From an uncultured virus (IMG/VR IMGVR_UViG_3300021599_001640) (taxonomy: Duplodnaviria; Heunggongvirae; Uroviricota; Caudoviricetes), in IMG/VR virus record IMGVR_UViG_3300021599_001640: 64,000 bases of DNA. One strand, written 5' to 3'. The position numbers were made by a program, and so were the translations under genes. Below are positions 13,195 to 60,359 of this stretch, piece by piece (within the stretch, counting starts at the first letter, position 1; each line of letters begins with the position of its first letter). The notes under the pieces are model-generated. The model ran no database searches. It was not told the DNA's origin and saw only the letters and a list, made by a program, of their open reading frames with translations.

Positions 13195-13244
13195 TATATA
13201 CTTGGTGATACTAACACCGTGACAAATCCCTTCCGTGTGACTTC

Positions 13245-13273: not shown

Positions 13274-13320
13274 AGTGTCTAAATATAAAAAGAATAGATT
13301 TGTCACTGTAGGATAACGCA

Positions 13321-19902: not shown

Positions 19903-19911
19903 TTGATCTAA

Positions 19912-20505: not shown

Positions 20506-20509
20506 AAAG

Positions 20510-21628: not shown

Positions 21629-21654
21629 ATAGAAGTACTTACTGAAAATTAATT

Positions 21655-23312: not shown

Positions 23313-23318
23313 TTTTCA

Positions 23319-23897: not shown

Positions 23898-23928
23898 ATA
23901 AAGTGTCTGAGTTATTTTACCATTTAAA

Positions 23929-24109
23929 CATGACCGAAGAAAAATCACAAAATATTGACGAAATGATTGCTGAGATCACCAAACAAATCGAAGATCTCAG
24001 AGAAGAACTGATTGAAACAGAAAGAACGTTCAATCTTAAAAAAGAACAGTTCATTAAACTTCAAGGAGCTCTAGAAGCTTTTGAAGTAGTAAAGACTAAT
24101 AATCTTTGA
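23929..24109 (+). CDS. Small coiled-coil protein
   Basis: ATG at about 23929, MTEEKSQNIDEM...; heptad pattern. Confidence 0.6.
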
Positions 24110-24123
24110 AACTGCACAGAGTT

Positions 24124-24185
24124 ATTATAACCGCAATTGAAGGGGCTAGTCAACATTGACAATAGCCCCTTTTATTTTGTATAAT
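24124..24185. promoter_or_regulatory. Back-to-back divergent sigma70 promoters overlapping a terminator hairpin
   Basis: + strand TTGACA(24156)-18-TATAAT(24180); - strand TTGACT(24153)-18-TATAAT(24129); stem AGGGGCTA/TAGCCCCT followed by a T run. Confidence 0.65.
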
Positions 24186-24195
24186 TATTGGATTT

Positions 24196-24474
24196 ATGGA
24201 CGAAAAAAAATTACCAGAATTAATTGATGAAAATCAATATCCAGACTTTTGGGAACAAATAAAATCTTTTCAAGAGTTTGCTAAAGATGTGGGTCAAGGT
24301 GCTGCGTCTGGAAATGGATTTTTAGCGTCTAAAGAATTACAAGAAAAAAGAATTGAAATTTGTAATGAATGTCCAGATTACAACAAAGATCAAAAAAGAT
24401 GTTACAAATGTGGATGTTTTATGGAACATAAGATAAAATTTGCAAATGTAAAATGTCCAGCATCTAAGTGGTAA
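24196..24474 (+). CDS. Small Cys-rich protein (DUF6171-like)
   Basis: RIEICNEC..RCYKCGCF...KCPASKW. Confidence 0.65.
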   Translation: MDEKKLPELIDENQYPDFWEQIKSFQEFAKDVGQGAASGNGFLASKELQEKRIEICNECPDYNKDQKRCYKCGCFMEHKIKFANVKCPASKW

Positions 24475-24475
24475 C

Positions 24476-26107
24476 ATGTGTGGTTTTGGTCTGGTATTAT
24501 GTAAAAGAGATAAAATTGACTATGAGTTGATTCGTATTGCAGAAGATGATCTAGGTCTTCGTGGCCCATCTTCTGCGACTCACTATTTGAGTGAACAGGT
24601 TTATATGTATCAGTCAGTTCTTGCGATACAAACTGAACCTAAACATGAAAAGTCAATTGCAAATCTACCAATAAATTACAAAGTTACGTTGTATAACGGT
24701 GAGATTTATGATGAGACAAAATACTCCAATGACACAGATTACATTAAAAAAGAAGAGTTAGAAAAAATTCTACTCAACTGCGACGGAATGTTTTCTGTTG
24801 CGAATGTGGAAAAACATGGATCGTATTTCAACGTTGATGTTTATAGAGATGTGATTGGTGAAAAGAGGTGTTTTTACTACGATTCTCCTAGACTGTTTAT
24901 CATATCCTCAACTCCATCTTTTATTAAGGATGTGTTGGAAAAATATGGAGTTCCAATTAGAGTTAATAAAGTTGCTTTAAAAGATTACTTTTTAACAAGA
25001 CATTACATCTCAAATTCCACTTCAATTGAAGGAATTTATCAAGTACCGCCAGGCCATAAATTAACTTACAATAAACATTTAACTGTAGAAAGAGTTTGGT
25101 CTGGAAGAGATTATTTAAACACCGATCTAATATTTGAACTCAAGAATAAAAGTCAGCATGATTACACATTACAGGTAAATGAGTTATTGTTAAAAACTTT
25201 GCAAAAGATGCAAAAGTCTGTCCTTCCACATGTAAAGGTGTATTCAGTAGTTTCTGGTGGTGTCGATTCTTCTATTGTTACTCATTTTTTAGAACAGGCT
25301 GGAGTGAATGTTGAACGTGCAATTACTCTGACATTTAACCAAAAGGATCCTGTAGCTTTATCATCAAATAGACTATTCAAGAATCTTTCGTCTTTACAAC
25401 TACAGAGAAACATTGATATTGATGAGTATTATGAATCTTACTTGGAATGTTTAAAGTTATGTTGTTCTCCGATTCCATCCCATGATTTCGCTTCTGCAAA
25501 TATCATGTTTAGTATGGTCGAACCTGGATCAATACTTTATGGAGGAGAAGGTGCGGATGAATTGTTTTTGGGATACAAATATTACGAAAGTTCAAATAAA
25601 TCCCAATATACACTACCGATCAGAAATAATTTTATTCTCTCATTTGAGAAAGAAATTGAAGAGGATTTTAATTATGTGAAAGACTTTTTTAAAAATCATG
25701 GATTTTCAGAAAGAGATTCTTCTATCAAAGCTTGTTCTTATGTAGATTTCTTTCATCAGATGCCTAATGCAACATTAATGTCAACAGATCTTATTGGATC
25801 AAGTCATGGTATTGAGTGTAGGACTCCCTTTACTCGTAAAGATATAGTAACTTTTGCTTTAAATTCTCCAGTTTCTTTACTTCTTGGTAAATCATCTTTA
25901 GTTAAACTATTTGAAACTTGCTTTAACACAGTTCCGTTTGAAAAACGAGGTTTCTGTGGACATCCTAACGAGATGTTAAGGTACTTGCCTAACGGGCTCT
26001 GCAAGTCTTATAGTACTTTTGGTACGGATAGGTTTGAATCCTCTGACAGAGATATTGCATGGAAGTATATCAATACTGAATTTTTCTTAAATAATGTAGC
26101 TGGATAA
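24476..26107 (+). CDS. Asparagine synthetase-like glutamine amidotransferase
   Basis: N-terminal MCG (Ntn nucleophile), RGP, YNGEIY, SGGVDSS PP-loop, GEGADELFLGY and E.RTPF motifs. Confidence 0.85.
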   Translation: MCGFGLVLCKRDKIDYELIRIAEDDLGLRGPSSATHYLSEQVYMYQSVLAIQTEPKHEKSIANLPINYKVTLYNGEIYDETKYSNDTDYIKKEELEKILLNCDGMFSVANVEKHGSYFNVDVYRDVIGEKRCFYYDSPRLFIISSTPSFIKDVLEKYGVPIRVNKVALKDYFLTRHYISNSTSIEGIYQVPPGHKLTYNKHLTVERVWSGRDYLNTDLIFELKNKSQHDYTLQVNELLLKTLQKMQKSVLPHVKVYSVVSGGVDSSIVTHFLEQAGVNVERAITLTFNQKDPVALSSNRLFKNLSSLQLQRNIDIDEYYESYLECLKLCCSPIPSHDFASANIMFSMVEPGSILYGGEGADELFLGYKYYESSNKSQYTLPIRNNFILSFEKEIEEDFNYVKDFFKNHGFSERDSSIKACSYVDFFHQMPNATLMSTDLIGSSHGIECRTPFTRKDIVTFALNSPVSLLLGKSSLVKLFETCFNTVPFEKRGFCGHPNEMLRYLPNGLCKSYSTFGTDRFESSDRDIAWKYINTEFFLNNVAG

Positions 26108-36822: not shown

Positions 36823-37206
36823 ATGGCGACTCGTTCTCGCATTGGTGTTCAACTCAAGAATGGCTCTGTCCTTTCTGTGTATTGTCACTGGGATGGCTAT
36901 CCGGAGTGGAATGGTAAGAAACTGAAAGAATACTTCAACACTCGGCAGAAAGCTGCGGAATTGGTTGATGGTGGAGACATCAGTGCTCTGTGGACTGATA
37001 AAGATTGGGATGGTAAAGAACAAGAGTTCGGTACTCTTTACTACGAAGGTCGTGGTGATGTAGACACTGAACCCAATTTGAGTGAATCTTTCCAAGACTT
37101 TATCAAGTCCGTGAATGATTCTTGGGCGGATTATGCTTACCTCTTTGCCGATGGTGAGTGGAAGTGTTATACTCCTAAAGGTAATGAAGAAAAAATCCCT
37201 GCCTGA
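36823..37206 (+). CDS. Phage hypothetical protein
   Basis: MATRSRIG..SVYCHWDGYPE; first gene after cassette 5. Confidence 0.75.
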   Translation: MATRSRIGVQLKNGSVLSVYCHWDGYPEWNGKKLKEYFNTRQKAAELVDGGDISALWTDKDWDGKEQEFGTLYYEGRGDVDTEPNLSESFQDFIKSVNDSWADYAYLFADGEWKCYTPKGNEEKIPA

Positions 37207-47232: not shown

Positions 47233-48767
47233 AGCTATGTTGAGAGGTTCACCCATGACTCGTCTTGAAATCCAACAGGCACTGTATGAGACTCGCAACA
47301 ACTATCTCAAAGCAAAAGCTTCGGTAGAGTTCTATCGTAAGGAGATCATGTTCCTCAAGGAATGTGAAGCAAACCTGGACAAACCTGAAGGTTGGTTGTA
47401 TCAAGAAATGTTCGGAGCTGAAGTATGAAGGTTGAACTCACCGACTATCAGATCAATTTGATTCTTTATTGTCTTGAACAACAAACTTATGAGTTTAGTT
47501 GGGACGAAAAGAATGACTACACTGGTATCCTAAGGGCTATTGAGTCTGCTGCTAACTTTGAGTACGATTTCGGGTATTAAAGATGACTAACTTTATGACT
47601 TGGGATAAGTTGAAAAAGCAGATGACGATTGAAGCTGTTGAATACTACATCTATCGGATGAAGGAAGACAACTGCAATCAAGCTGCGATTGATGTCTACA
47701 CAAAGTTTTTGGAGGAACTTGAATCGGAATGACCTACACAATTTCAAAAGAAATTAGAATCCACAATGATCAAGATGGTTGGGAGTATGTATTTACAACC
47801 GATGATTATGGAACTGTAAATGTGCAAGATAGTAATGGTCCTACATTTCAAACCATTCACATTCCTAGGGATTGTATTCAACACTTCATTGATGCTTTGG
47901 AAGAACTGAAATGAACTATCAATGTCCTCGTTGTCAAGAACGTGTAAAAGATTGGGAAGGTGATGATCCCAAATGTGGTTTTGATGAGAATGGCAACTTT
48001 CTAGAAAATAACTGGAATTGTGCTACTCTCAATGCTCTGCGTGAGAGAGCAGAAGAGAACACAGTGTGGAGTAACAATCAACAAAATGTTTCTGTCATTC
48101 AAACATATGATGTAGGACATGCTATCCTCTCTTGGTATAAGTGGAGAGGTCAAACTGATGACTTCCGTGATGGTTACTTTGATCGTGGAACTCTAACGTA
48201 TGCCCAACAGATTCTAGGTGATAGAGAACCTGACAATGGTTTTGATGGTTGGGAAGATTCTATTTTTGATGAGGATGAAGAATGACTAACTCAAATCTCT
48301 CTAAGATCCGTCCCAAACTGAGGACAACTGGGCGTGTTTCTGGTAACTTTGGACGAAACAAAGTTGTTAGTGGATCTCCCATAAATGATCTAGGTATTAC
48401 TAAAGTTGAAGTCGTCAAGTGTGCGACACAAGATGAATATCTTGCACGACTTTGGTACGCATTTGATAACACTGACGATGATAAACTTCGTCTTTTCCTA
48501 CATCAAGAAATCCGCAAAATCCACATTCAACGAGGTACATGGTGATGAGAAAAAAGTACAACTTCAATAACATGTCTCTTGCAGAGCTTCTGGGAATCTT
48601 TGTAGGTATCCTTGCAATCGTGTTTCTCTTTCTCAGTTTTGAAGCTTGGTTGCTTGGACTGATTCTATCTTGGTTTGCAGTTCAACTCACCTTCTGGCAA
48701 TGTTTCGCTATTGTCTTTCTCATTCAGGCCATTTTGGGCTCTGCAAAGAGCAATAACTGACCTAGTG

Positions 48768-48823
48768 TGACGGTTGGCGGACTGGACACCAAACCCGCCA
48801 ACCGCAGCCAGATCCTGTATCTT
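48768..48823 (+). promoter_or_regulatory. Dyad-promoter cassette, copy 9
   Basis: TGACGG-TTGGCGGA-CTGGAC, CGCCAA, TATCTT at 48818, then GGCCATGTTGAGA. Confidence 0.8.
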
Positions 48824-49473
48824 GGCCATGTTGAGAGATGAATCAAATGCGAATCGACATCCGTTGTCCTGCTGCTCCCTGGGAGAATCACACCACTGAT
48901 CTAGACAGAGCATACGACATCGCATACAATTTGAGTGAAGAATACCAGTGTGATGTTGACCTCTACTACAACACCACTGGCACACTTTACACCACTGTTT
49001 CTGCCTGAACAATGTCAGTATCTATTCTGCGTCCTGAACAACAATTCCTGTTCACACATGAACAGATGGGCTTAATTTATGATCTCTTGAGTGCATATTT
49101 GGGAGAGACAAATCATCCTGATGAAGTTGCTCTCACTCAGGAAACTCTAGATGTTATCACCATTCAATCCGTATGATCTATAAAGTATTGATTGAGTTCA
49201 CAGACAACAACTTTGAAGAAAAAATTATAGCATCTAATGCCTCAGCGGGAACTTTATGCGACAAGATTTTATGTCAAGATCGCATAGGTAAAATCCGATC
49301 TGTAGAAGCAAATCCACTTAAATCTTTAGGAGAATAATTATGTTCACATCCTTGACTATATTTGTTGCATGGTTTGCCTTTGGTTACTGTATTGCTGACA
49401 TTATCACGAATTGGCGTAGTCAAAAACAAATTGATGAGCTCGTCAAAGAGATTGTAAAAGAAGGCGATAAACA

Positions 49474-49779
49474 ATGATCCTCGCTGGATTGATGTGTGGA
49501 ATCGCAACATTTTATGGTGTTGGTGATGGATTCCACGGCCAAACAACTGCAAGCGGAAAATCATTCAATGCCTATGGTCTGACTGCTGCTCATCCATACT
49601 TGAGAATGGGCAGCAAATTACGCATCACAAATCAGGATAACATGAAACAAGTTATCGTGACTGTGAATGATCGTGGACCGTACAGCCATGCGGATATTGA
49701 TCTTTCGTATGGGGCTTTTAGGAGAATTGCTTCACCTTCACAAGGTAACGCAGTTGTATGTTTTAGGGTGATCGGTTAG
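49474..49779 (+). CDS. RlpA-like double-psi beta-barrel (lytic transglycosylase family)
   Basis: ATFYG..FHG.TTASG, TAAH, VNDRGPY and IDLS motifs. Confidence 0.85.
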   Translation: MILAGLMCGIATFYGVGDGFHGQTTASGKSFNAYGLTAAHPYLRMGSKLRITNQDNMKQVIVTVNDRGPYSHADIDLSYGAFRRIASPSQGNAVVCFRVIG

Positions 49780-49962
49780 TTACAACAATTCATTTTTGAT
49801 GAATCTGATTGCAGGGGATGACCTAATCCCCTACTGGGGTAAAATTGCAGAAAAATCATTGTTTGCTCAAACTCAGATCCCTTGCCACGACAGGGATCTC
49901 AAAGAGAGATCGGTGCGACGCTTTGAGGGTTGGACAGATCAGAGGCAAACCGAGCCAGAGTG

Positions 49963-50019
49963 TGACAATCCCCAAACCGCACACCAATTCAACCAAAGGT
50001 GGCCATGAGGATGTATCTT
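49963..50019 (+). promoter_or_regulatory. Dyad-promoter cassette, copy 10
   Basis: TGACAA-TCCCCAAA-CCGCAC; TATCTT at 50014, then AGCTATGTTGAGA. Confidence 0.8.
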
Positions 50020-50456
50020 AGCTATGTTGAGACAAACACACAAACCTCATGACTTTCGTTGACGCACTGATTGCATCGGGTTATGTATTCGATGATGAGA
50101 ATTATGATGGTTGTTATGTAAAACAAGATTCCGAAGGTTTCATTCATCTTTACCAGGAAAATGTGGATGATGATACTGACACTCTCTGGAATTATGTCAA
50201 GATGACTGATGATTTTGATGTGATTCATGAAGTAACTTTTGATCCTAATGTTGACACCATTGTTGAGTGAATCATGAACGACAAAACTAAACTCATTCTC
50301 GCATTGATGCAAATTGATAACATCACCAACCTGATGAAAGAGAATGAGTATGAGCACTTTATGGTGTCGCATTTAATTCCTCTCAAAGTAGAAATGGAAC
50401 GACAATTAACTAACTTGAACCGACCCGAATCTAAATAATTAAAAATTAGATTCAAG

Positions 50457-50663
50457 ATGAAAACCTTTCAAGAGTTCGTTGCTGAAATGGCCTATAAGGG
50501 AATGAGTAAAGAGAAAGAAAGTAGGATCAAAAAACAAATGACTGCGGCTAAAAAGTCATCGAAGAAAGCATCACAAGAAGGTGATGATGAGGCTGCAGAG
50601 AGACACGATCAAAGGCACAGAGCCCTGCGAGATAGAGTCAAACGCAGCGATCTGCCTTTCTGA
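50457..50663 (+). CDS. Putative capsid-packaged internal protein (T4 IP-like)
   Basis: N-terminus MKTFQEFVAE versus the T4 capsid-targeting sequence MKTYQEFIAE; basic; late-promoter-like CTAAATA at 50431. Confidence 0.65.
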   Translation: MKTFQEFVAEMAYKGMSKEKESRIKKQMTAAKKSSKKASQEGDDEAAERHDQRHRALRDRVKRSDLPF

Positions 50664-50673
50664 TGTAGCAATG

Positions 50674-50730
50674 TGACAGTCTGCGGGCTGTCCACTGATC
50701 GTGCCGAAGGGGGCTGTGGCCCTGTATCTT
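50674..50730 (+). promoter_or_regulatory. Dyad-promoter cassette, copy 11
   Basis: TGACAG-TCTGCGGG-CTGTCC, TGCCGA-17-TATCTT. Confidence 0.85.
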
Positions 50731-51599
50731 AGCCATGTTGAGAGGAATCACTGATGACTGACCGCAAGTTTCACAACATGAGCGTCGAAGATCGTGAGAT
50801 GTTTGCTTACAATGCAGCTTACGAGCGTCGTCAACAACAACTCGCTGCAGTTGCTCCTGAGCTGCGTATCAAATACTGCTTCGAGTTTCTGAAAGGTTAT
50901 GTTGCTGATGGTGATGATCTGATGTCAGCTCGTTGTTACGATGGCATCGCAAAGTACAGCGACAAACTTGACTGGTCTGAGGCACACTACTGATCATGCA
51001 CATTCCTTTTTTCACCAAGCTTAACATTGGTGTTGATAGTTTCAAGGATGCTCTTTACTGGTGGAATGAGAATGAAATGCCCGCCTTCTGGGTTGAACTG
51101 AATAGTGGTTACTATCAGCTACATCCCCAACAATACGCTGAGGTTATGCTGGGGGAAGGTTATGCTGATGTTGTCTACACTAACTGATTCGGAATGACTT
51201 ACAAAGAACTCCTGCAACAGCTTCAACAACTCACCGAAGATCAGCTCAACTCTGATGTTGCTATCTATGATGAAGGCACCGATGAGTATTATCAACTCAA
51301 AGTTGAGTTGGTATTTACTACCGGAGAATGTGATGTTCTTGATCCTGACCATCCTGTAATTCGTTTCTGATGATGTACGCAACCCTAGCTGAGTTTTACC
51401 GTTATGTTTATGCCTTCTATGGTCGTGGTGGTGTGTATCCCATGGGCGCAACTTTAGATGAGATTGAATCAGCAACTAAGATTCTCATTCGTGAGCTCAC
51501 CGCAACAGATAAAGACTTTGTGGGTGATAGCATTGATCGTGAGCTTGTGCGGGACATCCTCATTTCAGAATACGGCTTAGAGTTTCCTGACTAAGTATG

Positions 51600-51656
51600 T
51601 GCCAGTTGGCGGGCTGTCCACCAAATCCGCCAAAGGGGCTCAGGGCCCTGTATCTT
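51600..51656 (+). promoter_or_regulatory. Dyad-promoter cassette, copy 12
   Basis: TGCCAG-TTGGCGGG-CTGTCC, CGCCAA-17-TATCTT. Confidence 0.85.
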
Positions 51657-52745
51657 AGCCATGTTGAGACAAACAAACGCAATGAGTCAATTCATTTGTA
51701 TCACTTTCGGTCCTCGCAATGATGATCCTGCACAATTCTGGAATGAGCGTACTTTCTGGGATCGTCAATCACAAGCAGAAAAGTGGGGTCTCAAGTCTCT
51801 CTCGATTGCAGGAACTTTCGGTTATGTTGTGATCGAAGATTGTGAAGATTCGTGGGAGATTGTTGATGAGTGCGGAGCACCTGATCATGCTGTGAGTATT
51901 TCCTGCGACAGACTTGGCACCTATTCTGTTCAACCTGCACCTAAACTCATTCTGATCTGATGAACAAACAAATGGAAATGATCGACATTCTGCAAGAAGA
52001 ATGCCGCAAAGATTCTGAACTCCTCGATATGATCATTGAGGAATATGTGATGGGGCTAAATGCTTTTGAAGAAGCAAATCTTGAAGATTTTATTGTCAAC
52101 AACTTCGGAGATCTTTGATCATGGCTGCTAACAACACTCTCGCACATCTCCGTGATCGTGTGCAGCGTTTGATTGAACAACAGGGAGAAGATGCTCCTGC
52201 TGCTGCATTTATCTTTACCAATGCAGATGTATTCATTTGGGATGAAGGTGACGGAGATCAAATGCCTGTAGAACGTCAAATTGCTTCCGACATTCTCAAT
52301 GAGATTGAGGACTATGATCACATTTACACTGAGGTATTTGATCTGATCGAAGAAGAACTCAAGGCTCGCAATCTTATCGAAAATGACTGAGCACACTGGT
52401 TACACTTTCAACCGAGTTAAGTTCACCAAAGATGAGGAAACTTGTCTCTTACGTTTGCTGTTCCAAGCACGAGATTGTGGGAACTGTAATGTTGATGAAG
52501 AATGGCTGCCTTTGTGTAATGATCTGATCACAAAGTATTACAACAGCCAGATCAAAGAAGCTCAACCTATCCAAACTCTCTGAAATTATCATGGTCGTTC
52601 ACTTCTATGAAGGTCAGTCTTACTCTTGGGAGTATTCCAACCGCAGCTATGATGATAGCGGATGCTGGGAGGATTATCTGACTGCCGATGAGTATGAAGA
52701 TGCTCTAGATCGTAAGCGGTTTGAGCAATCAAATCGAGACTGGTA

Positions 52746-52801
52746 GGCCAATTCACTGGCTGCACACTAAAGCTGCCGAGTGCAGCCAGAACCTGTATCT
52801 T
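52746..52801 (+). promoter_or_regulatory. Dyad-promoter cassette, copy 13
   Basis: GGCCAA-TTCACTGG-CTGCAC, TGCCGA, TATCTT at 52796. Confidence 0.8.
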
Positions 52802-53737
52802 GGCCATGTTGAGAGGAATCGCTCCCCAATGTTTGACGAACTCTGGTCCGAGATTGCTGATGCTCCTGGTGAGATCTTCGACCGTCCGATGACAGCAGAA
52901 GAACGAGCTGAGTTTCAGAGAGTCTGTGAAATGTCTGAAGAAGAGTATTACTATTACATGGAAGCTGCCTGAAATGATGAACGATCTCCGTCAACGTTGT
53001 ATGGATCTCGCCGATGAAATGTCGGCCGAGATCAATGGCAACCTGTTCTATGTTCCCGACGAAGACATAGAGAACTGCCTCAAAGCTCTGACTGAGGATA
53101 ACATCCAAGATGTCGCAGCTGAACTTGCAAACCTAGCTCACTGGTTTAACTGATCATGAATCTGAACACTCTTGAATTGCTCATTGCTGACTGCTTTGAG
53201 TACATCAATGACAACGATCCCAAAGCTGGTGCGTATTGGAGCAACCAACTCTTCACCAAGCAAGGTGACATCAAACGTCATATGATTACTGAGATGACGC
53301 TTCAGCGGCTAGAGAACATCGCTGCTGAACTCTGCGACTATCAGGAAGTCTGATTAACACAAACACAACACACACAAAACAATGGAACTGACCAAAGCTT
53401 TCCCTCCCGCTGACGATCTGATCATGAAACTGCAAGAGATTGATTACAGCAAACACTTCCACAAATACATGGACATTGTTGAAACTATTGTGGTGTGGAT
53501 TGCCGCAATCGCTACTATCATCTTCGAGAAGCTGCAGACGATGCGATTCAAAACTCCCGACACGATTGCTGACTACTTCTACTTCAACATCAACATGATT
53601 GCTGCTCCTGGTGATGAGATTGTGGGTCTGAGTGTAGGCAATCGTTACATCGGTTTCTATGGCGACTCTCTGAACTGGGGTGTGCTCGACGAGAACGGCT
53701 GCCTTTGATTTGAGCGAACAATTAAATTGATTTAATT

Positions 53738-53779
53738 CTGGCTGCATGGAGTGATCCAACCTACCATGCAGCCAGTTTT
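53738..53779 (+). terminator. 12-bp hairpin with T tail
   Basis: CTGGCTGCATGG...CCATGCAGCCAG followed by TTTT. Confidence 0.6.
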
Positions 53780-53884
53780 AACGCTTTTTCCGGTTTCTGC
53801 CGTAGTGGTGGCCATGAGTCTCACCGCTTGCGACTTGAGACTGGCTGGGGGCTGGGTCAGATCCTACCAAACCTGGCCGGTGTG

Positions 53885-53941
53885 TGACAATCGGGTGGCT
53901 GTCCACTGATCCCGCCGAGAGGGCCCGTTAGGCCCTATATT
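53885..53941 (+). promoter_or_regulatory. Dyad-promoter cassette, copy 14
   Basis: TGACAA-TCGGGTGG-CTGTCC, CGCCGA-17-TATATT, then GGCCACATG. Confidence 0.85.
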
Positions 53942-54821
53942 GGCCACATGAGGGAGAGGGAACGACCTCCCCCCACCAAACCATTCTCCGCTCAAACCAT
54001 GCGTAAGATCGAAACTCTGATGAACCAGGCCATCCAGAAAGAAATCGACTGGAAGCTGGACAACACTGAAGTAATCAGCTGCTCCAACGTTTCTGATGTC
54101 TACCTGCATGGCAACCTGATTGCTCGTATCGGTGAAACTTGGATGGAACTGTTTGACGGTGGCTGGCAGACTGCTACCACCAAGTCCCGTCTGAATGCTA
54201 TTCTCTCTGCACACGGCTGCCCTGGTGAGCGTGTCTTCCAACAGAAAGGCCAGTGGTTCATCACCATCAACGGAGCTAAGGTTCCTTTCTTCTCGGGTAT
54301 GCGTCTGAACTGATGGCTAGAACCAAAACGCTAACATTCAAGTCACCAAACAAAATGAAAACAATTGGCCTGATCTTTGTGATAGCGTTTCTGATCTTTC
54401 CATCAGTTCGCTACACCACTGGGAGCATTCTGCACTCCACTGGTGACTTCATTCAATCCACAGCTGATTGATTACGATGAAGCACACCAACACAGTTCGC
54501 ATCATTGACCGCCTCGGCTTGTTCCCTGAAACTAGAGGAAAAGCCCGCTACATCTCGGTCAAAACTTATGCTCATGCAATGGAGATTGTCGATGAGCAAA
54601 ACAAACTTGGCAACACAGCCACACTGATTAACTGGTAACAAATTATGGCTAAAGATTCTACAATGGTTGAAACTGAATACTACGAGCTTCCGCTTGATTT
54701 TTATCTGAAGTGTGAGTTCATTGCTGCTCAATTAGAGGTCACAGTTGATTACCTTCTGGAGGAGTTTTACGATGATGGTGAACTCATTGTGCCAAACTTT
54801 GTGCAGGAATGAGCAACAATA

Positions 54822-54877
54822 GGACAGTCTGATGGCTGTCCACTAAATACGCCGCACCCAGCCAGAACTGGTATCTT
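54822..54877 (+). promoter_or_regulatory. Dyad-promoter cassette, copy 15
   Basis: GGACAG-TCTGATGG-CTGTCC; TATCTT at 54872. Confidence 0.85.
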
Positions 54878-55426
54878 AGCCATGTTGAGAGATTCAACCG
54901 AACCCCAAATGTTCACAATCACCTATCAAGTTCCCTACAACAACTGTGAGTGGCGGACTCAAAGCTTCAAGACTCTCGCTGAAGCAGAGTCGATGATAGC
55001 TTTCTACCGCTCCTGTGGTTCACCTGCTAAACTTGTCTGATCATGAAAACTTTAACTCTTCAAGTTACAGACGTTGAGTTTGATTTTGATGATGAAGATT
55101 TTACGATTGAAGAGCAACTAGAAGTTATCAGCTCTGTCGTTGGTAACACCTTTGAGGTTGAAGTTGATGATGACGATGATGATGAAGCCATCGCACATTG
55201 TCTAGTTGAAGAGGTGACAGATGCCACTGGTTGGTGTGTCTTCTCTCTTAATTTTGTTCACATTCTTAACACTCACTGACATGCGAATCGCTCTTCTGAT
55301 TGCTACTCTTGCTCTTGGGCTGAAGACTGGTCTTGCTGCTCATGCGACTGTGAATGCTTATCAAGAAGCACAAGCCGAACGGATGTGCCAGATTGATCCA
55401 AGCTACTGCGGACTGAAGCAAAAATA

Positions 55427-55483
55427 GGACAGTTGGATGGCTGTCCACTCAATCCGCCGAACCGACCCGTTTGGCCCTATATT
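55427..55483 (+). promoter_or_regulatory. Dyad-promoter cassette, copy 16
   Basis: GGACAG-TTGGATGG-CTGTCC, CGCCGA-17-TATATT, then GGCCACATG. Confidence 0.85.
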
Positions 55484-55833
55484 GGCCACATGAAGAACGA
55501 AACCGCTCAAATGTCACTTTTCTCCCAAGGCTGGAAAGCTGAAGTCTACTTCGGTAGCGAGTTGACTGCTCATCATATGAACACCCGTTCGGTGTATCGT
55601 TTCAAGGAGAATGCCAATGTGAGCATCACTCACTCCGGAAAGTATGCTGAGAATGGAACTGTGGATGTGTTCGCAGTTTCTATTCGTGAGGAGATCAATC
55701 CTCGTCACTCTGTGACACAAACTGTTGAGACTTTTGATAACTGGTTGGACGCATACTACTGCGGTGTTCAGTGTGTCAACAATCTGAACAGCGACATTCT
55801 CGCTGCTCAATGCTGATCGGTTAGGGTTAGGTG

Positions 55834-55889
55834 GGACAGTCATCTGGCTGTCCACCAAATCCGCCGAGACCAGCCACCTGATGTATTCT
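55834..55889 (+). promoter_or_regulatory. Dyad-promoter cassette, copy 17
   Basis: GGACAG-TCATCTGG-CTGTCC; TATTCT at 55884. Confidence 0.85.
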
Positions 55890-56871
55890 AGCCATGTTGA
55901 GAGGAATCCGAACCGAATGAAAGTCTACGCTGTGATCGCTGGAATTGATTACGAAGGCGAAGTGTTTGATACTCTGCGCCTGTTCGATTGCAAGTCTGCC
56001 GCAGAAGCATATGAGGCAGAACTTGATGCAAACTATGATTATACCCTGATGGAAGCCCGTGAGGTGATCATGGAATCTGCAATCGCTGCTTGATCATGAA
56101 AAACTATCGAGTTCGTGTTGAGACTTATGATGGCTGTGTCACGATTTGGTATGAGAAATCCAAGGCCAAATCCGCAGACAAATTGATTCTCAATCGTGTC
56201 TACAATCAGCTCTGTGGGCTGAATGTCAAAGAAATCGAAGTTACTCCTTCCGTCTGAACTTTTCACACTAATTAACACAAACTCATGAATCGCCAAGAAC
56301 TTCAAGATCAGCTCATTCAGACAATCCTCGATGGTATGGATCTGAAATGTTTGCTTCAAATGTGTTACGATGTGATGGATGAGAATTATGATAAGTATTC
56401 GGATGAAGAATTGATTACTGAATGTGAAGAATACTATCCCGAACTTCTAGAGGGCTGATTCGCCATTCGCAAATAGAGAATGAGATGCGCTCTAAAGACA
56501 CTCAAACTCACCAACACCAACACACTCAAATGATCGCAACTCGTAAAGACTTCTTCATCGCTGTGCTTGATCAGTTTGCTACTAATGGTAACGAACTTCT
56601 GCAACTTCTGGATGACATTGTGAACGGCGAATGTGAATGCTATCTTGAAGACTGATTAACTGTTCATTTCTTACACTTTTTCTTCTTTTCTCTCATGACT
56701 CTTCAATCTGCAATCGCTCAACTTCGCGCTGCTCGCAACGGCGCTGAAATGCTCCAAGTTCTCGACATGCTCGCACAAGACTCTGTAGGTTACACCTATG
56801 CCGAGTCCCCACAAATCGCCAAGGTTCTCGGAGTGCCCACACTTGAAGCTGTAGAGCTCTGATGGTATAAT

Positions 56872-56898
56872 AAAGGGGGCTCACATCCCCCCCTTTTT
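56872..56898 (+). terminator. Intrinsic terminator
   Basis: AAGGGGG...CCCCCTT followed by a T run. Confidence 0.65.
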
Positions 56899-57304
56899 GT
56901 ATGACTGATACGGAGAAACTTCTCGAACTTTCAGAGTTAATCAGACAGATCATCTTTGCTCTAGAGATGACACAATACGAAATCTCCGATTCACAACAAA
57001 AGAATAATGTTCTAGAACTCTCTGAGATCTATCACCAGAAGATGATTGCTATTCTAACCACATGAAGAAACACCATCTGATTGTTGCTTCAATCATCCCA
57101 GCTATCCTACTCACATTCGCAACGATTCGTGATAGCTGCGCAAACCCCGATTATGCCAATTACTTCACAGAATCATGCAAAACAAAGTAGAAAACTGGGT
57201 GGACAATCTAACACTCACACAACAACAAAAAGTTTACAACGAGATCGTGGATTATTTCACAAGTGAGGTGATTAAAGAGGTGTTATCAAAGTATGACAAT
57301 TCTC

Positions 57305-57333
57305 TTGACATTGAACATCTAAACGTATAAAAT
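57305..57333 (+). promoter_or_regulatory. Sigma70-type promoter
   Basis: TTGACA-17-TAAAAT upstream of ORF 57372. Confidence 0.7.
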
Positions 57334-57729
57334 AGTAACGTACTTTCATTCACACTTAAGGACACACACTTATGCAAACCATCAACAACAAAGTTACACG
57401 TTACAGAGTTACCTTGGACTTTACAGTTGATACATCTAACTGTGTAAGTCCTAAAGAATGGAATTGGGCTTCACTTCTCGAACTCGGTAACAACGAATCA
57501 GTCAATGAGGTTTATGTAGAGAACCTCGGAGAATATACCACTCGTAGGAGTAAGTAATGGACCTCACTACCGCTCACCCTTACGGGGAAGAAAGTTTGTT
57601 CGATTTTGAACAAGAGATCAATGATCAGTATGCTGCTCAGTATGATGAAGATATGATCTTCGATGATTACTCTAGTGGCATAGATGCTGAGAGTTATGAT
57701 CCTTGATTGATCTCTGATTGTTTATACTG

Positions 57730-58035
57730 TTTTCCACAGCTTTATGATACCTTTGTGGAAAAAGCTGTGGAAAACAAGCCATTAAAAAAAGGCTAAAAAA
57801 ATCAAGCTTGTGTGAAAGCTTTCTCGTTTATGTTCTCTCTGTGGCCCCTCTGATGGCTTATAAAAAAGCCTCTGAGACCTTGTAATCTTAGCGGGCAGGC
57901 TATCACACGACCGCATAAATGTCAAGAGACCCCCCACATAAGTCTCCGGGACCACACAGTTTGAGCAACATAAGGTCTCACAGTTTCTTATAGTTTTCCA
58001 CAGCACTTGTGGAAAAAGTCTATAAGTTTTCCACA
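57730..58035. repeat. Cluster of six perfect TTTTCCACA (cyanobacterial DnaA-box) 9-mers
   Basis: 57730(+), 57754(-), 57766(-), 57994(+), 58008(-) and 58027(+), all in a non-coding gap. Confidence 0.85.
57897..57925 (-). promoter_or_regulatory. Leftward sigma70 promoter with extended -10
   Basis: Minus strand TTGACA-17-TAGCCT, with TGn immediately before the -10. Confidence 0.6.
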
Positions 58036-58072
58036 GTCTTATGAGCACTCTAAGTCCCCCACATCTCGGAGC

Positions 58073-58101
58073 TTGACATAAGCTCTCTGAGGCCTTATAA
58101 T
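58073..58101 (+). promoter_or_regulatory. Perfect consensus sigma70 promoter
   Basis: TTGACA-17-TATAAT. Confidence 0.85.
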
Positions 58102-58221
58102 AACTCTGTGGGAGTGCATAAAGGGGCTGAGTGCTTAAGCTCTTTGAGCCGGCTTAAGTAAAGCTCAAGCCACAAAGACTCATGAGCCTACCATAGAACC
58201 TTGACAACTGAGATACACAAT

Positions 58222-58277
58222 GGACACTTATCTAACTGGCCACAGAATGTGCCAGAGGGAGCCAGATCCCGTATATT
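58222..58277 (+). promoter_or_regulatory. Dyad-promoter cassette, copy 18
   Basis: GGACAC-TTATCTAA-CTGGCC; TATATT at 58272, then AGCCATGTTGAGA. Confidence 0.8.
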
Positions 58278-58554
58278 AGCCATGTTGAGAGGAACACACA
58301 TGAGCCGGTTATGCTAACTATGAGACCTGGAATGCTGCTCTGTGGATTGGCAATGAGTACAGTCTGTATAAGATTGCTCTTCGTTGTGAAGATTATGCCG
58401 AGTTCCAAGAGCTTATGATTGATCACTACGGTATGAGCTGCACCCCTGATGGTGTACTCTGGAACGACTCTGAGCTTAACCACGATGAGCTCGACGAAGT
58501 GATCAAAGAACTCTGAGCTTCGTCTATTCTAACCGTTCACCACACACTAACACC

Positions 58555-58800
58555 ATGAGCACCATTAACGTCGCAACCGCTACCAAACTCGACCTGCTGA
58601 TTGCTGATACTCAAGGGCAGATTAAGTACACCGTGCTCCCCACCCGTAAGGCTCGGAAATCTGAACTGCTCATGAGCCGCACGAATGGCGTCCGCACCAA
58701 CACTAACCGTAAGGGTCAGGCATACAGCGGACATGCCACACATGCACAGAATGCTGTGATGGAGGGCAATGCTGCTGCGTATTTCAAGACCAGCGGCTGA
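58555..58800 (+). CDS. Small basic hypothetical protein
   Basis: 81 aa ORF with an AC-rich leader. Confidence 0.65.
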   Translation: MSTINVATATKLDLLIADTQGQIKYTVLPTRKARKSELLMSRTNGVRTNTNRKGQAYSGHATHAQNAVMEGNAAAYFKTSG

Positions 58801-59606
58801 TGGGGTAGAGTGTGCGTCCCCTCTGAGGCTTATGAGCACTTGGAGGGGACACGAATACAGGGTAGACGAGCAGCGGTGTTCGTGATCTTATGAGCACTTT
58901 GAGCAGTTGTTTATGCGCCCGTTTGTTATAGCGCGGGGCGCGGTGGCCCCCTATTTCAAAAAACGCTCACTACCCTAATCTATAACGACCCCAAAAAGCG
59001 CTCATAAAGCTTCACACGACTCAAAATTTTTTTCGCCAGCCAAAAACACTCAAAACCCCCTTTCATAAATTCTTAGAGATACTTTGAGTAATCATGAAAA
59101 GTCCCCTTCGATATCTTTATGAGAATGTGTATGGTACAGATATTACAATTGTTGATGAATGTACATATATCTTGATCTGTATTCAAGAGTGTGTTAGAAT
59201 CTTATGGTCTAAAAAGACGAAATGAATATATAATGTTTGAGATGAACATTCAGAATACATGGAATTACAAATAGATCACTACGAAAAGGATTTACTTATT
59301 GATTGTATTCAACATCGTTTGGATACTGATAAGATTTTAATTATCAATGATTCTCTAAAGTCTGAGATTGAGGACCTGCTTGCAAAAGTAGAAGAGGAGT
59401 GTGTATAATATACTTGTAGATGGTTATGTAATTGCACAGAATGTTTCGAAGTGTGATTTGAAACATAAGGTGGAGATCATCAGAGCATACTGTAATCTTG
59501 AAGAAGATCTCAGATTTGCTAAGGTTACATACGTTCTAAATAATCCAGAAACCATTGCATGAATTGATTTGTAGTGGTAGAATAATTACGTCGCAATTCT
59601 AGTTTT

Positions 59607-60359
59607 ATGTCAAAAGGATTTACAATTAAAGCAAACGCTCCGACTCCAAAGAAAAACGAGGATGATTTTGATATTGAAGCCGCGAAGGAAATGATTCGTG
59701 GTAAATCGATTATCTTCTGTCTTCCTGGACGTGGATGTTCATATATTTTTCTGAAGAATTTCGTACAGTTGTGTTTTGATCTTGTGCAGTCTGGTGCAAG
59801 TATTCAAATTTCACAGGACTATTCTTCCATGGTTAACTTTGCACGTTGCAAAGTACTAGGTGCAAATGTTCTTCGTGGACCAAAGCAGATTCCTTGGGAT
59901 GGAAGACTGCAGTATGATTATCAACTGTGGATTGATAATGACATTGTATTCAACACTGAGGCATTCTATCGTCTTGTAGCAATGGATCGTGACATTGCGG
60001 CTGGTTGGTACATGACTGAAGATGGTCAGACTACTTCAGTTGCTCATTGGCTTGAGGAAGATGACTTCAAGAAGAATGGTGGAGTCATGAATCATGAGAC
60101 TGGTGATACGATGAGTAAGCGTCGTAAGCCATTCACAGTAGACTACACTGGTTTTGGTTGGGTATTGATTAAGAAGGGTGTATTTGAGTCTCTAGAGTAT
60201 CCTTGGTTCGCTCCGAAGATGCAAGTGTTTGACTCTGGAGAAGTTCAGGATATGTGTGGAGAAGACGTATCCTTCTGTCTTGATGCAAAGGCAGCGGGCT
60301 TTGAGATCTGGTGCGATCCTAAGATTCGCGTTGGACACGAGAAGACTCGTATTATCTGA
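59607..60359 (+). CDS. Cyanophage protein with a GT-A glycosyltransferase-like fold
   Basis: WIDND (DxD), GFGWVLI, GEDVSFC and VGH motifs; promoter TTGCAT-17-TAGAAT at 59555. Confidence 0.7.
   Translation: MSKGFTIKANAPTPKKNEDDFDIEAAKEMIRGKSIIFCLPGRGCSYIFLKNFVQLCFDLVQSGASIQISQDYSSMVNFARCKVLGANVLRGPKQIPWDGRLQYDYQLWIDNDIVFNTEAFYRLVAMDRDIAAGWYMTEDGQTTSVAHWLEEDDFKKNGGVMNHETGDTMSKRRKPFTVDYTGFGWVLIKKGVFESLEYPWFAPKMQVFDSGEVQDMCGEDVSFCLDAKAAGFEIWCDPKIRVGHEKTRII

What the first reader, a model, noticed from the sequence alone, without database searches (positions are those of the whole stretch)
57700..58200. Host-oriC mimic in a T4-like phage: six perfect cyanobacterial DnaA boxes arranged around divergent promoters
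Seen: a roughly 550-bp gene-free gap holds six exact TTTTCCACA 9-mers in two triads (57730+, 57754-, 57766-; 57994+, 58008-, 58027+). An A-rich tract (57781-57805) follows the first triad, and the second triad sits between a leftward promoter (57897-57925) and a perfect rightward one (58073-58101). At about 65% AT, a rough estimate is about one chance hit per 64 kb, so six in 306 bp is not chance. Established: TTTTCCACA is the DnaA-box consensus of cyanobacterial oriC, whereas T4 starts replication from R-loops and recombination, without DnaA. Inference: this is a host-DnaA-primed phage origin, a datA-like sink that titrates DnaA to stop host chromosome initiation, or a DnaA-sensing promoter switch.
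Basis: partly seen in the sequence, partly recalled or inferred. Interest (0 to 1): 0.9.

Follow-up and report, generated by a model that had tools for sequence, protein, structure and literature searches.

The report
Host DnaA boxes in cyanophage control region
A T4-like cyanophage carries six perfect copies of its host's DnaA-binding motif around a conserved backward-pointing promoter and an A+T-rich stretch, a layout shared by well-studied cyanophages that may mark a host-assisted replication origin or switch.

Summary
Six exact TTTTCCACA 9-mers lie at the stated coordinates. The window has 7 (shuffles: mean 1.54, maximum 5) and the nearest whole record, 162 kb, has 8. The segment is genuine phage DNA, not host DNA or a mis-assembly.

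The boxes behave like DnaA sites. Spacings follow the helical repeat (11-12 and 21-22; 13-14, 23-24, 33-35). One-mismatch variants beside perfect boxes fall at positions 1-3 (83 of 113), and TTATCCACA is the commonest.

They are not an oriC copy. Marine Synechococcus genomes hold only 13-28 perfect boxes, at most three within about 310 bp in the listed rows. The dnaN-upstream regions of two of them hold no perfect box.

The boxes decorate a roughly 60-nt noncoding core conserved across Kyanoviridae. It is a leftward extended -10 sigma-70 promoter in an otherwise rightward genome, followed by an A+T-rich block.

Half of the core-bearing loci (26 of 52) carry boxes. Named carriers are Syn9, S-PM2, S-SM2, S-CAM3, S-RIM32 and P-TIM68. 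S-SCSM2R, S-SSM7, P-HM2 and P-SSM2 have no cluster.

Best reading (about 0.38): host DnaA acts in cis on a T4 oriF-like promoter-plus-unwinding-element origin. Rivals are DnaA control of transcription, a DnaA sink, or another binder. My searches found nothing in print.

The parts
57730..57738 (+). DnaA box 1 (TTTTCCACA), left arm of the 16-bp inverted repeat
   Evidence: Degenerate in three close relatives: TTTTTCACA in L129 and L130, shifted in L125
57754..57762 (-). DnaA box 2
   Evidence: Its 12-bp spacing to box 3 is kept in L130 and L129. In L125 this site reads TGTTGAAAA, one mismatch
57766..57774 (-). DnaA box 3, directly repeated 12 bp after box 2
57781..57810 (.). A-rich tract beside the first triad. 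It is the counterpart of the conserved A+T-rich block of relatives
   Evidence: S-CAM3, S-RIM32, S-PM2 and L129 have a similar tract next to the boxes. Mean A+T is 72-75% at -180 to -120 from the core in 52 loci
57868..57930 (-). Conserved noncoding core, the leftward promoter P_L. The -35 TTGACA is at 57925-57920, TGn at 57905-57903 and the -10 TAGCCT at 57902-57897. The inferred start is near 57890 and the transcript has no ORF
   Evidence: In 96 of 106 unique core-bearing loci TTGAC[AT] sits 17 nt (90) or 18 nt (6) from the -10. The tool scores the homologous site in L352 at 11/12 with TG
57994..58002 (+). DnaA box 4
   Evidence: The pair TTTTCCACA-N5-TGTGGAAAA recurs in L129, P-TIM68, S-CAM3 and S-RIM32, and with N4 in S-PM2
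58008..58016 (-). DnaA box 5
58027..58035 (+). DnaA box 6, 37 nt upstream of the -35 of P_R
   Evidence: In L129 the same box lies 13 nt from the -35
58073..58101 (+). Rightward consensus sigma-70 promoter P_R (TTGACA-17-TATAAT)
   Evidence: Conserved in L125, L129, S-SCSM2R and Syn9
58106..58302 (+). Conserved untranslated leader of about 195 nt downstream of P_R
58304..58516 (+). First gene after P_R, DUF7249 family. No in-frame start codon here: the ATG at 58300 is one base out of frame
57557..57706 (+). Last small ORF of the upstream rightward gene array (49 aa). It ends 23 nt before box 1

Best explanation
The six 9-mers are binding sites for the host initiator DnaA. This is inferred from sequence only. 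They are not a free-standing copy of oriC. They are add-ons to a noncoding module conserved across T4-like cyanophages (Kyanoviridae). The module is a leftward extended -10 sigma-70 promoter (P_L) in an otherwise rightward genome, an A+T-rich block in the untranslated region it transcribes, and a strong rightward early promoter (P_R) next door.

The most likely mechanism is that the module is a T4 oriF/oriG-type origin. The P_L transcript invades the A+T-rich element and primes DNA synthesis. In box-bearing phages, phased DnaA oligomers next to that element help open or hold it open, which ties phage initiation to the host's DnaA state. The phage's own gp59/gp41-type loader would then take over.

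Shown here: the boxes, their phasing, their DnaA-like degeneracy, their attachment to P_L and the A+T-rich block, and their recurrence. Inferred: DnaA binding, transcription from P_L, and any origin activity.
For: (1) Identity of the motif. TTTTCCACA is the published cyanobacterial DnaA box (passages of PMC4674748). Six exact copies lie within 306 bp, against 1.54 expected per 64 kb.

(2) Signs of protein binding. In 106 unique clusters from low-GC viral loci, direct repeats peak at 11-12 nt (22) and 21-22 nt (24). Convergent pairs peak at 13-14 (21), 23-24 (40) and 33-35 (11). The flanks give AG-TTTTCCACA-GGTT.

(3) DnaA-type degeneracy. Of 113 one-mismatch variants lying 9-120 nt from a perfect box, 83 differ at positions 1-3 and none at positions 4 or 9. 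The commonest is TTATCCACA (26). More than 300 nt away only 24 of 134 differ at positions 1-3, and position 8 leads with 44.

(4) Attachment to P_L. A scan for the core that did not use the boxes gave at least 120 loci, 106 of them unique. Of the 52 with at least 400 nt on both sides, 26 have one or more boxes, 16 have two or more, and 8 have three or more. That is 59 boxes against 2 control words. Of these, 49 lie left of the core, downstream of P_L, all between -200 and -1. Their orientation is 38:11.

(5) Promoter plus A+T-rich element. The -35 sits at a fixed 17-18 nt in 96 of 106 loci. A+T peaks at 72-75% about 120-180 nt downstream. The boxes abut this block.

(6) Precedent. [quoted passage not shown] The T4 record annotates oriF with the uvsY transcript as its primer.

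(7) Machinery. Cyanomyophages encode gp59 helicase loaders, as annotated in Syn9, P-HM2 and S-SM2.

(8) Recurrence. Two separate lineages carry box arrays on both sides of P_L: the window's lineage and that of L014/L088.
Against: No experiment or read-depth profile supports origin firing. Cumulative GC skew rises monotonically through the locus, although a T4-like phage need not show a skew switch.

Boxes are absent from 26 of 52 core-bearing loci, without even one-mismatch relics in the 250 nt left of the core (0). They are also not clustered in S-SCSM2R, S-SSM7, P-HM2 and P-SSM2. DnaA therefore cannot be essential to the module.

The window lacks the GC-cluster and trio layout of bacterial unwinding systems, judged by reading the sequence. 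In the window the long A+T-rich block of relatives is reduced to a 30-nt A-tract.

The distance between the boxes and P_R varies from 13 to 37 nt. The orientation bias downstream of a promoter fits a transcription roadblock equally well. P_L is a prediction. RNA-library contigs that span the locus are from a relative about 90% alike and cannot show strand or start sites.
Confidence: 0.38

Rival explanations
1. DnaA-dependent control of transcription. DnaA bound downstream of P_L blocks or attenuates the leftward noncoding RNA. Arrays between P_L and P_R modulate the divergent early promoters. Expression of the P_L RNA, and perhaps of the P_R operon, then tracks the host's DnaA level, and so its cell-cycle or diel state.
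For: Of the 59 boxes, 49 lie in the transcribed region downstream of P_L, all within 200 nt left of the core, with a 38:11 orientation bias. The second triad sits upstream of both promoters. In L129 one box lies 13 nt from the -35 of P_R. Exploiting host transcription-factor sites is already described for cyanophages: NtcA and Pho boxes (passages of PMC3037559). The optional nature of the boxes suits a modulator. Orientation-dependent blocking of RNA polymerase by DnaA-box complexes in E. coli is recalled from memory, not checked here.
Against: P_R is a 12/12 consensus promoter that should need no activator. Box-to-promoter distances are not conserved. This reading does not explain the conserved A+T-rich block beside the boxes. 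No target or function of the P_L RNA is known.
Confidence: 0.28
2. A datA-like sink. The cluster acts in trans. As phage DNA multiplies, it soaks up host DnaA, shutting down host chromosome initiation and disturbing DnaA-regulated host genes.
For: Thirteen marine Synechococcus genomes hold only 13-28 perfect boxes each, and in the listed rows at most three within about 310 bp. One phage genome therefore adds a quarter to nearly half of a host's total at one spot, multiplied by phage copy number. The boxes are perfect, so presumably high affinity. Their number varies from 2 to 8, as expected for a dosage trait.
Against: A sink could sit anywhere. Yet the boxes are tied to one conserved module, with preferred distance, orientation and phasing relative to P_L and the A+T-rich block. 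Many phages carry only two boxes. Half of the relatives carry none.
Confidence: 0.12
3. The motif is not read by DnaA. It is bound by another host or phage protein, or it works as RNA, since inverted pairs with 4-5 nt spacers would form 9-bp hairpins in the P_L transcript or in read-through mRNA.
For: The commonest ancestral unit is an inverted pair, TTTTCCACA-N4/5-TGTGGAAAA. The window's first triad forms a 16-bp hairpin, and the leftward RNA folds at -55.6 kcal/mol, z = -5.15. No binding data exist.
Against: Direct repeats at 11-12 and 21-22 nt are as common as inverted ones and cannot form hairpins. Hairpins would show compensatory change, not strict retention of one 9-mer across genera. 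The variant spectrum matches the DnaA consensus, with TTATCCACA on top. No DnaA C-terminal domain is encoded in G001, which is 77% complete.
Confidence: 0.15
4. The locus marks a structural landmark of the genome, such as a packaging start or terminus, and the boxes are incidental to that role.
For: Of 40 contigs of at least 15 kb that carry the core, 18 end within 700 nt of it (1.7 expected), and 17 of those ends are on the left side. This covers the 80 of 120 loci that were listed. A 238,937-bp contig estimated 100% complete starts at the core and ends in the upstream terminator hairpin. For S-PM2, a paper reports 2-3-fold read density just downstream of the 5,799-15,339 deletion and reads it as terminal redundancy (passages of PMC4503421). 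The S-PM2 boxes lie at 19.2 kb.
Against: A nucleotide-conserved element shared by co-occurring phages breaks metagenome assemblies by itself, which explains the contig ends without any physical terminus. The window, G001 and many other contigs run straight through the locus. I could not see the paper's figure, so the limits of the dense region are unknown to me. No known packaging system uses DnaA.
Confidence: 0.05

Closest known systems
[quoted passage not shown]
   Same: A promoter whose transcript runs into an A+T-rich element. It lies in a T4-type phage that has a gp59-type loader. The transcript need not code. T4's oriE likewise relies on an early sigma-70 promoter.
   Different: The T4 origins use MotA-dependent middle promoters and no DnaA (0 mentions of DnaA in the review). 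Here the promoter is a host-type extended -10 sigma-70 promoter, and up to eight host DnaA boxes are attached. T4 oriF lies just 3' of gene 25, whereas this locus lies 3.4 kb 5' of gp25. Origin activity is untested.
Bacterial oriC and its basal unwinding system: DnaA boxes, GC cluster, DnaA-trios, A+T-rich region
   Same: Phased clusters of consensus DnaA boxes next to an A+T-rich tract. The two-group arrangement around a promoter recalls bipartite origins (recalled).
   Different: There is no similarity to host DNA (0 of 201 genomes). No dnaA or dnaN is nearby, no trio repeats, and no skew switch. In one Synechococcus genome the dnaN-upstream region shows two abutting one-mismatch boxes followed by GGCCC-TACTAC and then an A+T-rich stretch. 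The second genome examined has a single one-mismatch site there. The phage cluster is denser in perfect boxes than any host site listed.
DnaA boxes in origins of temperate phages and iteron plasmids (P1 oriR, lambda, RK2, pSC101)
   Same: A mobile replicon recruits host DnaA through boxes beside an A+T-rich region. Relatives also carry 1-3 tandem modules (CACAAGGTCTGAGCACATTTA-like) that look a little like iterons.
   Different: Those replicons encode a Rep or O initiator and use the host replisome. This is a lytic T4-like phage with its own replisome, and no Rep gene was identified. The P1 and lambda details are recalled. Only a search listing of a review (PMC4980987) was seen.
datA and other DnaA-box clusters that titrate or inactivate DnaA
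   Same: A dense cluster of high-affinity boxes outside oriC.
   Different: The position is tied in cis to a promoter and A+T-rich module. No IHF-type site was tested, and trans action is untested.
Host transcription-factor sites exploited by cyanophages (NtcA sites, Pho boxes)
   Same: Binding motifs of a host regulator placed in cyanomyophage intergenic regions.
   Different: The factor would be the replication initiator. The sites form phased arrays at a single conserved locus rather than being scattered at many promoters.

Membership tests
DnaA-box cluster (TTWTNCACA sites bound by DnaA domain IV) | Match to the host-type consensus 9-mer | tested here: met
   Six exact TTTTCCACA. The consensus is documented for cyanobacteria.
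DnaA-box cluster (TTWTNCACA sites bound by DnaA domain IV) | Tolerated variation confined to the weakly contacted positions, with a strict CACA core | tested here: met
   83 of 113 nearby one-mismatch variants differ at positions 1-3 and none at positions 4 or 9. TTATCCACA is the commonest. The background spectrum differs.
DnaA-box cluster (TTWTNCACA sites bound by DnaA domain IV) | Spacing compatible with cooperative binding on one face of the helix | tested here: met
   Peaks at 11-12 and 21-22 nt (direct) and at 13-14, 23-24 and 33-35 nt (convergent). The convergent class was enriched by the search pattern, but the peaks within its range were not.
DnaA-box cluster (TTWTNCACA sites bound by DnaA domain IV) | Physical binding by DnaA | not testable with these tools
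   Needs EMSA, footprinting or ChIP.
oriC-type origin / basal unwinding system | GC cluster and DnaA-trio repeats between the boxes and the A+T-rich region | tested here: not met
   Read by eye: no CTA/TTA trio run after the boxes. One host dnaN-upstream region does show boxes, then GGCCC, then TACTAC.
oriC-type origin / basal unwinding system | Derived from, or similar to, host oriC, next to dnaA or dnaN | tested here: not met
   0 of 201 host-family genomes match. The neighbours are small phage ORFs.
oriC-type origin / basal unwinding system | Strand-composition switch at the origin | tested here: not met
   Cumulative GC skew is monotonic across the window and across G001. This is weakly informative for a T4-like phage.
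T4 oriF/oriG-type origin | A promoter directing a transcript into the origin | tested here: met
   A conserved leftward promoter, with the -35 at 17-18 nt in 96 of 106 loci. This is prediction only, and the promoter is a sigma-70 type, not a MotA type.
T4 oriF/oriG-type origin | An A+T-rich unwinding element downstream of that promoter | tested here: inconclusive
   An A+T peak of 72-75% lies 120-180 nt downstream in 52 loci. The window has only a 30-nt A-tract. T4's element lies within a minimal origin of about 100 bp. Unwinding was not tested.
T4 oriF/oriG-type origin | R-loop formation and origin-dependent replication | not testable with these tools
   Needs experiments in infected cells.
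datA-like DnaA sink | Acts in trans, independent of its position | tested here: inconclusive
   The boxes keep a fixed relation to P_L and the A+T-rich block, which is not expected for a pure sink but does not exclude one.
Iteron-type phage or plasmid origin | A cognate Rep initiator gene and iterons | not tested
   Repeated 21-nt modules were seen in relatives. No Rep search was done beyond the family scans.

The most novel reading that the evidence does not exclude
This conserved noncoding module is the unidentified primary replication origin of the Kyanoviridae, and it is a hybrid of two origin types. A host-type promoter supplies a T4-style R-loop primer. In about half of the lineages, including Syn9 and S-PM2, arrays of perfect host DnaA boxes let the host initiator open or license it. 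Phage DNA synthesis would then be coupled to the host's DnaA-ATP level, and so to its light-driven cell cycle.
Probability: 0.3. Interest if true: 0.85.

Novelty: new variant of a known kind. Interest (0 to 1): 0.7.

Why it matters
T4-type phages are the textbook case of replication that does not use DnaA. My searches of the held library found nothing that names a replication origin in T4-like cyanophages. If these abundant ocean and lake viruses recruit the host initiator at a conserved promoter and A+T-rich module, several things follow. It would give the first candidate origin for the family. It would be a new way for a lytic phage to read or drain the host's replication state. It might also give a handle on why cyanophage DNA synthesis follows the host's light and cell cycle.

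The idea can be tested directly, because cultured model phages (Syn9, S-PM2, S-SM2, S-CAM3, S-RIM32, P-TIM68) carry the boxes while cultured relatives (S-SCSM2R, S-SSM7, P-HM2, P-SSM2) have no such cluster.

Even on the more modest readings, the roughly 60-nt core with its backward promoter is an undescribed element. It is conserved at the DNA level more strongly than the genes around it.

Tried and rejected
- **Host DNA or chimeric assembly:** rejected. Fourteen DNA runs from 12 studies hold at least 94% of the sampled words of 56500-59500. Ten of these runs are not flagged as a possible source. In addition, 0 of 201 host-family genomes match.
- **Known RNA family:** none. The only Rfam hits are plant miRNA models far below their thresholds, caused by the hairpin.
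- **Intrinsic terminator:** none found in 57000-59200.
- **Phage-encoded DnaA-like binder:** PF08299 was not found in G001 at E <= 1. The record is 77% complete.
- **GC-skew origin signal:** none.
- **Late-promoter reading of the repeated modules:** the window's late-type motif ATAAATA sits before gp25 (61536), but TAAATGTG-type modules are absent from the locus in the window. I dropped this idea.
- **A second divergent-promoter gap at about 24.1 kb:** it holds small ORFs and a terminator, and I saw no box or core there when reading it. It is not a second copy.
- **RNA evidence:** RNA-library contigs of two runs from one study, from a relative about 90% alike, cover 57754-59134. Contigs show neither strand nor start and may be DNA carry-over. 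This gives no verdict on transcription.
- **blastn of the 71-nt core against named phages:** no match, because the query is too short.
- **Syn9 transcriptome paper:** I recalled it (Doron et al. 2016) and asked for it by DOI, but it is not held. Its start-site tables could bear directly on P_L and I could not see them.
- **Contig ends as physical termini:** considered but judged more likely an assembly effect of a conserved element shared between genomes.
Full report
**1. The observation**

The six exact TTTTCCACA 9-mers are at 57730+, 57754-, 57766-, 57994+, 58008- and 58027+. The window has seven exact sites. One hundred dinucleotide-preserving shuffles gave a mean of 1.54 and a maximum of 5. 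The nearest whole record, G001 (162,060 bp, estimated 77% complete), has eight, six of them here, and none of the reversed control word. With one mismatch allowed there is no window-wide excess: 44 found against 36.6 expected. The signal is therefore a local cluster of perfect sites.

The first triad is also a perfect 16-bp inverted repeat with the third box in its loop. The A-rich tract (57781-57810), the 12/12 rightward promoter (58073-58101) and the leftward promoter-like site (57897-57925) are all present. No credible gene lies between 57707 and about 58300.

**2. What the window is**

The window is a T4-like cyanomyophage. It encodes gp5-type baseplate hub lysozyme, a 2,193-aa tail fibre, and gp25 and gp6 baseplate wedge proteins. 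Every family-annotated gene is on the + strand.

The locus lies 3.4 kb upstream of gp25, inside a run of small ORFs. Words from 56500-59500 are held almost completely by 14 DNA runs from 12 studies labelled freshwater or fungus metagenome. Four of these runs are flagged as possible sources. Nothing like 57700-58320 was found in 201 genomes of the picocyanobacterial family that I reached through a Synechococcus locus. Mis-assembled or recently captured host DNA is therefore excluded as far as these data go.

**3. Is the motif a DnaA box?**

Passages of PMC4674748 state that TTTTCCACA is the DnaA box of most cyanobacteria, with between one and twelve copies per predicted oriC. Three sequence-level tests made here agree with DnaA-type recognition.

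- **Recurrence and phasing.** Together with the 80 loci they hold 128 unique clusters of 2-8 boxes, 106 of them in loci with less than 47% GC. Direct repeats peak at 11-12 and 21-22 nt. Convergent pairs peak at 13-14, 23-24 and 33-35 nt. These are steps of one helical turn.
- **Flanks.** The flanking bases give AG-TTTTCCACA-GGTT. Four of five perfect boxes that I read in one host genome also continue with GG (anecdotal).
- **Variant spectrum.** Of 113 one-mismatch variants lying 9-120 nt from a perfect box, 83 differ at positions 1-3 and none at positions 4 or 9. The commonest is TTATCCACA, the classical box. More than 300 nt away only 24 of 134 differ at positions 1-3, and position 8 leads.

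No DnaA C-terminal domain is encoded in G001. Binding itself is untested.

**4. Not a copy of host oriC**

Thirteen marine Synechococcus genomes carry 13-28 perfect boxes each, against 4-27 reversed control words. In the listed rows the largest grouping is three boxes within about 310 bp. Conserved pairs lie about 44 bp and about 293 bp apart in several genomes, near genes such as a mutY-like glycosylase.

In four genomes dnaN sits at the start of the record and dnaA lies far away. In the two whose thrC-dnaN gaps I read there is no perfect box. One has two abutting one-mismatch boxes followed by GGCCC-TACTAC and an A+T-rich stretch, plus a further one-mismatch site about 90 bp upstream. The other has a single one-mismatch site. 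The phage cluster is therefore denser in perfect boxes than any host site I saw. It also lacks that GC-cluster and trio layout.

**5. What the boxes are attached to**

Aligning the window with its closest relatives (L076/L125, L040/L130, L129/L101) shows that the noncoding region is highly conserved. Boxes 2 and 3 are unchanged in two of the three relatives; in L125 box 2 carries one mismatch. There is turnover elsewhere. For example, the spacer between boxes 4 and 5 is 5 nt in the window and L129 but 15 nt in L125, one helical turn more.

The named relative S-SCSM2R keeps the gap and both promoters but has no box there and only one in its 244 kb.

Searching with the non-box part revealed a roughly 60-nt core (window 57868-57930) shared by far more divergent contigs. 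On the minus strand it reads TTGACA, then 14 nt, TGn, TAnnnT, and then a conserved start region (GCGCGCTAAGATCACAAG...). The spacer between the two hexamers varies while the hexamers do not, which is the signature of a promoter.

My pattern fixed the TG and the TA..T. The -35 was not part of the pattern, and it is present at 17 nt (90 loci) or 18 nt (6 loci) in 96 of 106. In L352 the scan tool scores this site at 11/12 with a TG, a divergent 11/12 promoter beside it, and the terminator of the upstream operon.

This leftward promoter, P_L, faces against the rightward run of genes in which it sits. Its transcript has no ORF in the sequences I read.

**6. Position of the boxes relative to the module**

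Of the 52 unique core-bearing loci with at least 400 nt on both sides, 26 have no perfect box within 400 nt, 10 have one, 16 have two or more, and 8 have three or more. That is 59 boxes against 2 control words. Forty-nine of the 59 lie left of the core, all between -200 and -1. This is the region transcribed from P_L, and the orientation is 38:11.

Mean A+T rises to 72-75% at 120-180 nt from the core, against 59-64% further out. This block has a recognisable sequence (CATATACATTTAAAAA...ACATTT...). The boxes, often an inverted pair with a 4-5 nt spacer, end 2-15 nt from it. Beyond it lies the intrinsic terminator of the upstream operon.

The 26 box-free loci have no one-mismatch relics in the 250 nt left of the core (0).

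Two lineages carry additional arrays on the other side of P_L, between P_L and the rightward promoter. One is the window's lineage, where the array is the second triad. The other is that of L014/L088, with five phased direct repeats.

**7. Named phages**

Clustered boxes in a long ORF-free gap occur in six named phages:

| Phage | Boxes at the locus |
|---|---|
| P-TIM68 | 2 |
| S-CAM3 | 3 |
| S-RIM32 | 3 + 2 |
| Syn9 | 52565 / 52589 |
| S-PM2 | 19231 / 19244 / 19256 |
| S-SM2 | 58064 / 58085, beside the core at 58123 |

The Syn9 record annotates small ORFs over its boxes. S-SCSM2R, S-SSM7, P-HM2 and P-SSM2 have only scattered single boxes. That makes 6 of 10 named phages with a cluster.

Of the 80 loci fetched through the conserved downstream gene (window 59607-60359), 15 have two or more boxes upstream and none has a cluster downstream. 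Among the 38 loci with at least 2.5 kb of upstream DNA the figure is 9. I counted these by eye from the output.

**8. Mechanism**

The anatomy is a host-type promoter firing into an A+T-rich element, with optional phased initiator sites beside that element. [quoted passage not shown] The T4 record annotates oriF with the uvsY transcript as its primer, next to gene 25. Cyanomyophages encode gp59-type loaders.

I therefore favour a promoter-primed origin that DnaA assists in box-bearing lineages, with confidence of about 0.38. Every functional step in this reading is inferred.

The evidence against is as follows:
- No skew signal.
- Half of the relatives have no boxes.
- No trio motif.
- Only a short A-tract in the window itself.
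- An orientation bias that a transcription roadblock would explain equally well.

The rivals are DnaA-dependent control of P_L and P_R (about 0.28), a sink for DnaA (about 0.12), a different binder or an RNA-level role (about 0.15), and a packaging or terminus landmark (about 0.05).

The last rival rests on three observations:
- An excess of contig ends just left of the core: 18 of 40 contigs of at least 15 kb, against 1.7 expected, among the 80 of 120 loci listed.
- A complete-length contig that is broken exactly there.
- A published note of 2-3-fold read density a few kb from the S-PM2 locus (passages of PMC4503421).

A conserved element shared between co-occurring genomes would break assemblies in the same way, so I rank this rival low.

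**9. Novelty**

The searches were:
- 'cyanophage' + 'DnaA box': 2 papers; judged unrelated from titles and abstract starts.
- 'TTTTCCACA': 32 papers, of which the 25 listed include none on phages.
- 'DnaA boxes' + 'phage genome' + 'titrat': 0 papers.
- 'cyanophage' + 'origin of replication' + 'T4-like' + 'DnaA': 1 paper, on plant mitochondria.
- A five-term search, of which I saw 25 of 343 listings. Only two of those contained 'DnaA'. I opened one, and it did not concern this motif.

The comparative paper on 16 cyanomyophages has no occurrence of 'DnaA' or 'origin of replication', and it describes NtcA and Pho sites. The library lacks most subscription papers, including the Syn9 transcriptome study.

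Within these limits the feature appears undescribed. I class it as a new variant of known kinds: DnaA boxes in mobile-element origins, host-factor sites in cyanophages, and T4 promoter-plus-unwinding-element origins.

Noticed in passing
window 58300-58516: The first gene after P_R (DUF7249 family) has no in-frame start codon. The ATG at 58300, behind a good ribosome-binding site, is one base out of frame and stops after five codons. The homolog in L125 starts at that ATG and reads through. This is a frameshift, an assembly error, or an unusual start.
   Followed up: partly
window 58106-58302; L125, L129, L130, L123, L141: The roughly 195-nt leader behind P_R is strongly conserved, including an invariant stretch before the start codon. 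A closing helix (CUGUGG / CCAUAG) is kept in five of six sequences and weakened at two pairs in the sixth. Overall covariation support is weak.
   Followed up: partly
80 of the 120 loci L347-L466; G210 ends: Metagenome contigs end just left of the conserved core far more often than chance. Of contigs of at least 15 kb, 18 of 40 end within 700 nt, against 1.7 expected. A 238,937-bp contig estimated complete starts at the core and stops in the upstream terminator hairpin, so only the A+T-rich block is missing.
   Followed up: partly
S-PM2 NC_006820 19177-19333 (L474 1678-1834): The RefSeq record annotates tRNA-Asn and tRNA-Leu, and other tRNAs overlapping CDSs, across the DnaA-box triad. ARAGORN finds no tRNA anywhere in 17500-24500. 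The tRNA coordinates of that record look displaced.
   Followed up: partly
L474 1950-2110 (S-PM2), L336 3200-3300 (S-CAM3), L337 3200-3330 (S-RIM32): Just right of the module these phages carry arrays of AAATCTCAAAA-like words, their inverted copies, and tandem TTCTTAAGATTTAAGA units. This is a second repeat-rich noncoding stretch of unknown role.
   Followed up: no
L147 4360-4520, L149 2330-2400, L139 6040-6120, L143, L138: In another lineage the boxes are followed by 4-7 copies of a TTCGTTATA-like word spaced about 15-17 nt apart. In further relatives 1-3 tandem CACAAGGTCTGAGCACATTTA modules lie between P_L and the boxes (L391, L393, L374, L416). These could be sites for a second factor.
   Followed up: no
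window about 48000-58000 (G001 90-100 kb): The run of small ORFs just upstream of the locus has 42-46% GC, against 31-37% in most of the genome.
   Followed up: no
L081, L100, L016, L005, L109 (viral contigs of about 50% GC): Viral contigs of about 50% GC also carry dense TTTTCCACA clusters. L081, for example, has seven boxes within about 110 bp. I did not classify these contigs. DnaA-box clusters may be more widespread among phages whose hosts use this box.
   Followed up: no
G003 and relatives (L326-L328); Marine Synechococcus genomes share conserved pairs of perfect boxes in intergenic regions away from dnaN and dnaA. The pairs lie about 44 bp and about 293 bp apart, one of them upstream of a mutY-like gene. 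They are candidate DnaA-regulated host promoters.
   Followed up: partly
window 11678-11762, 12294-12367, 36954-37046: Three tRNA genes were found (Leu-TAA, Thr-TGT, Gln-CTG). The Gln call, at 93 nt, is unusually long.
   Followed up: no
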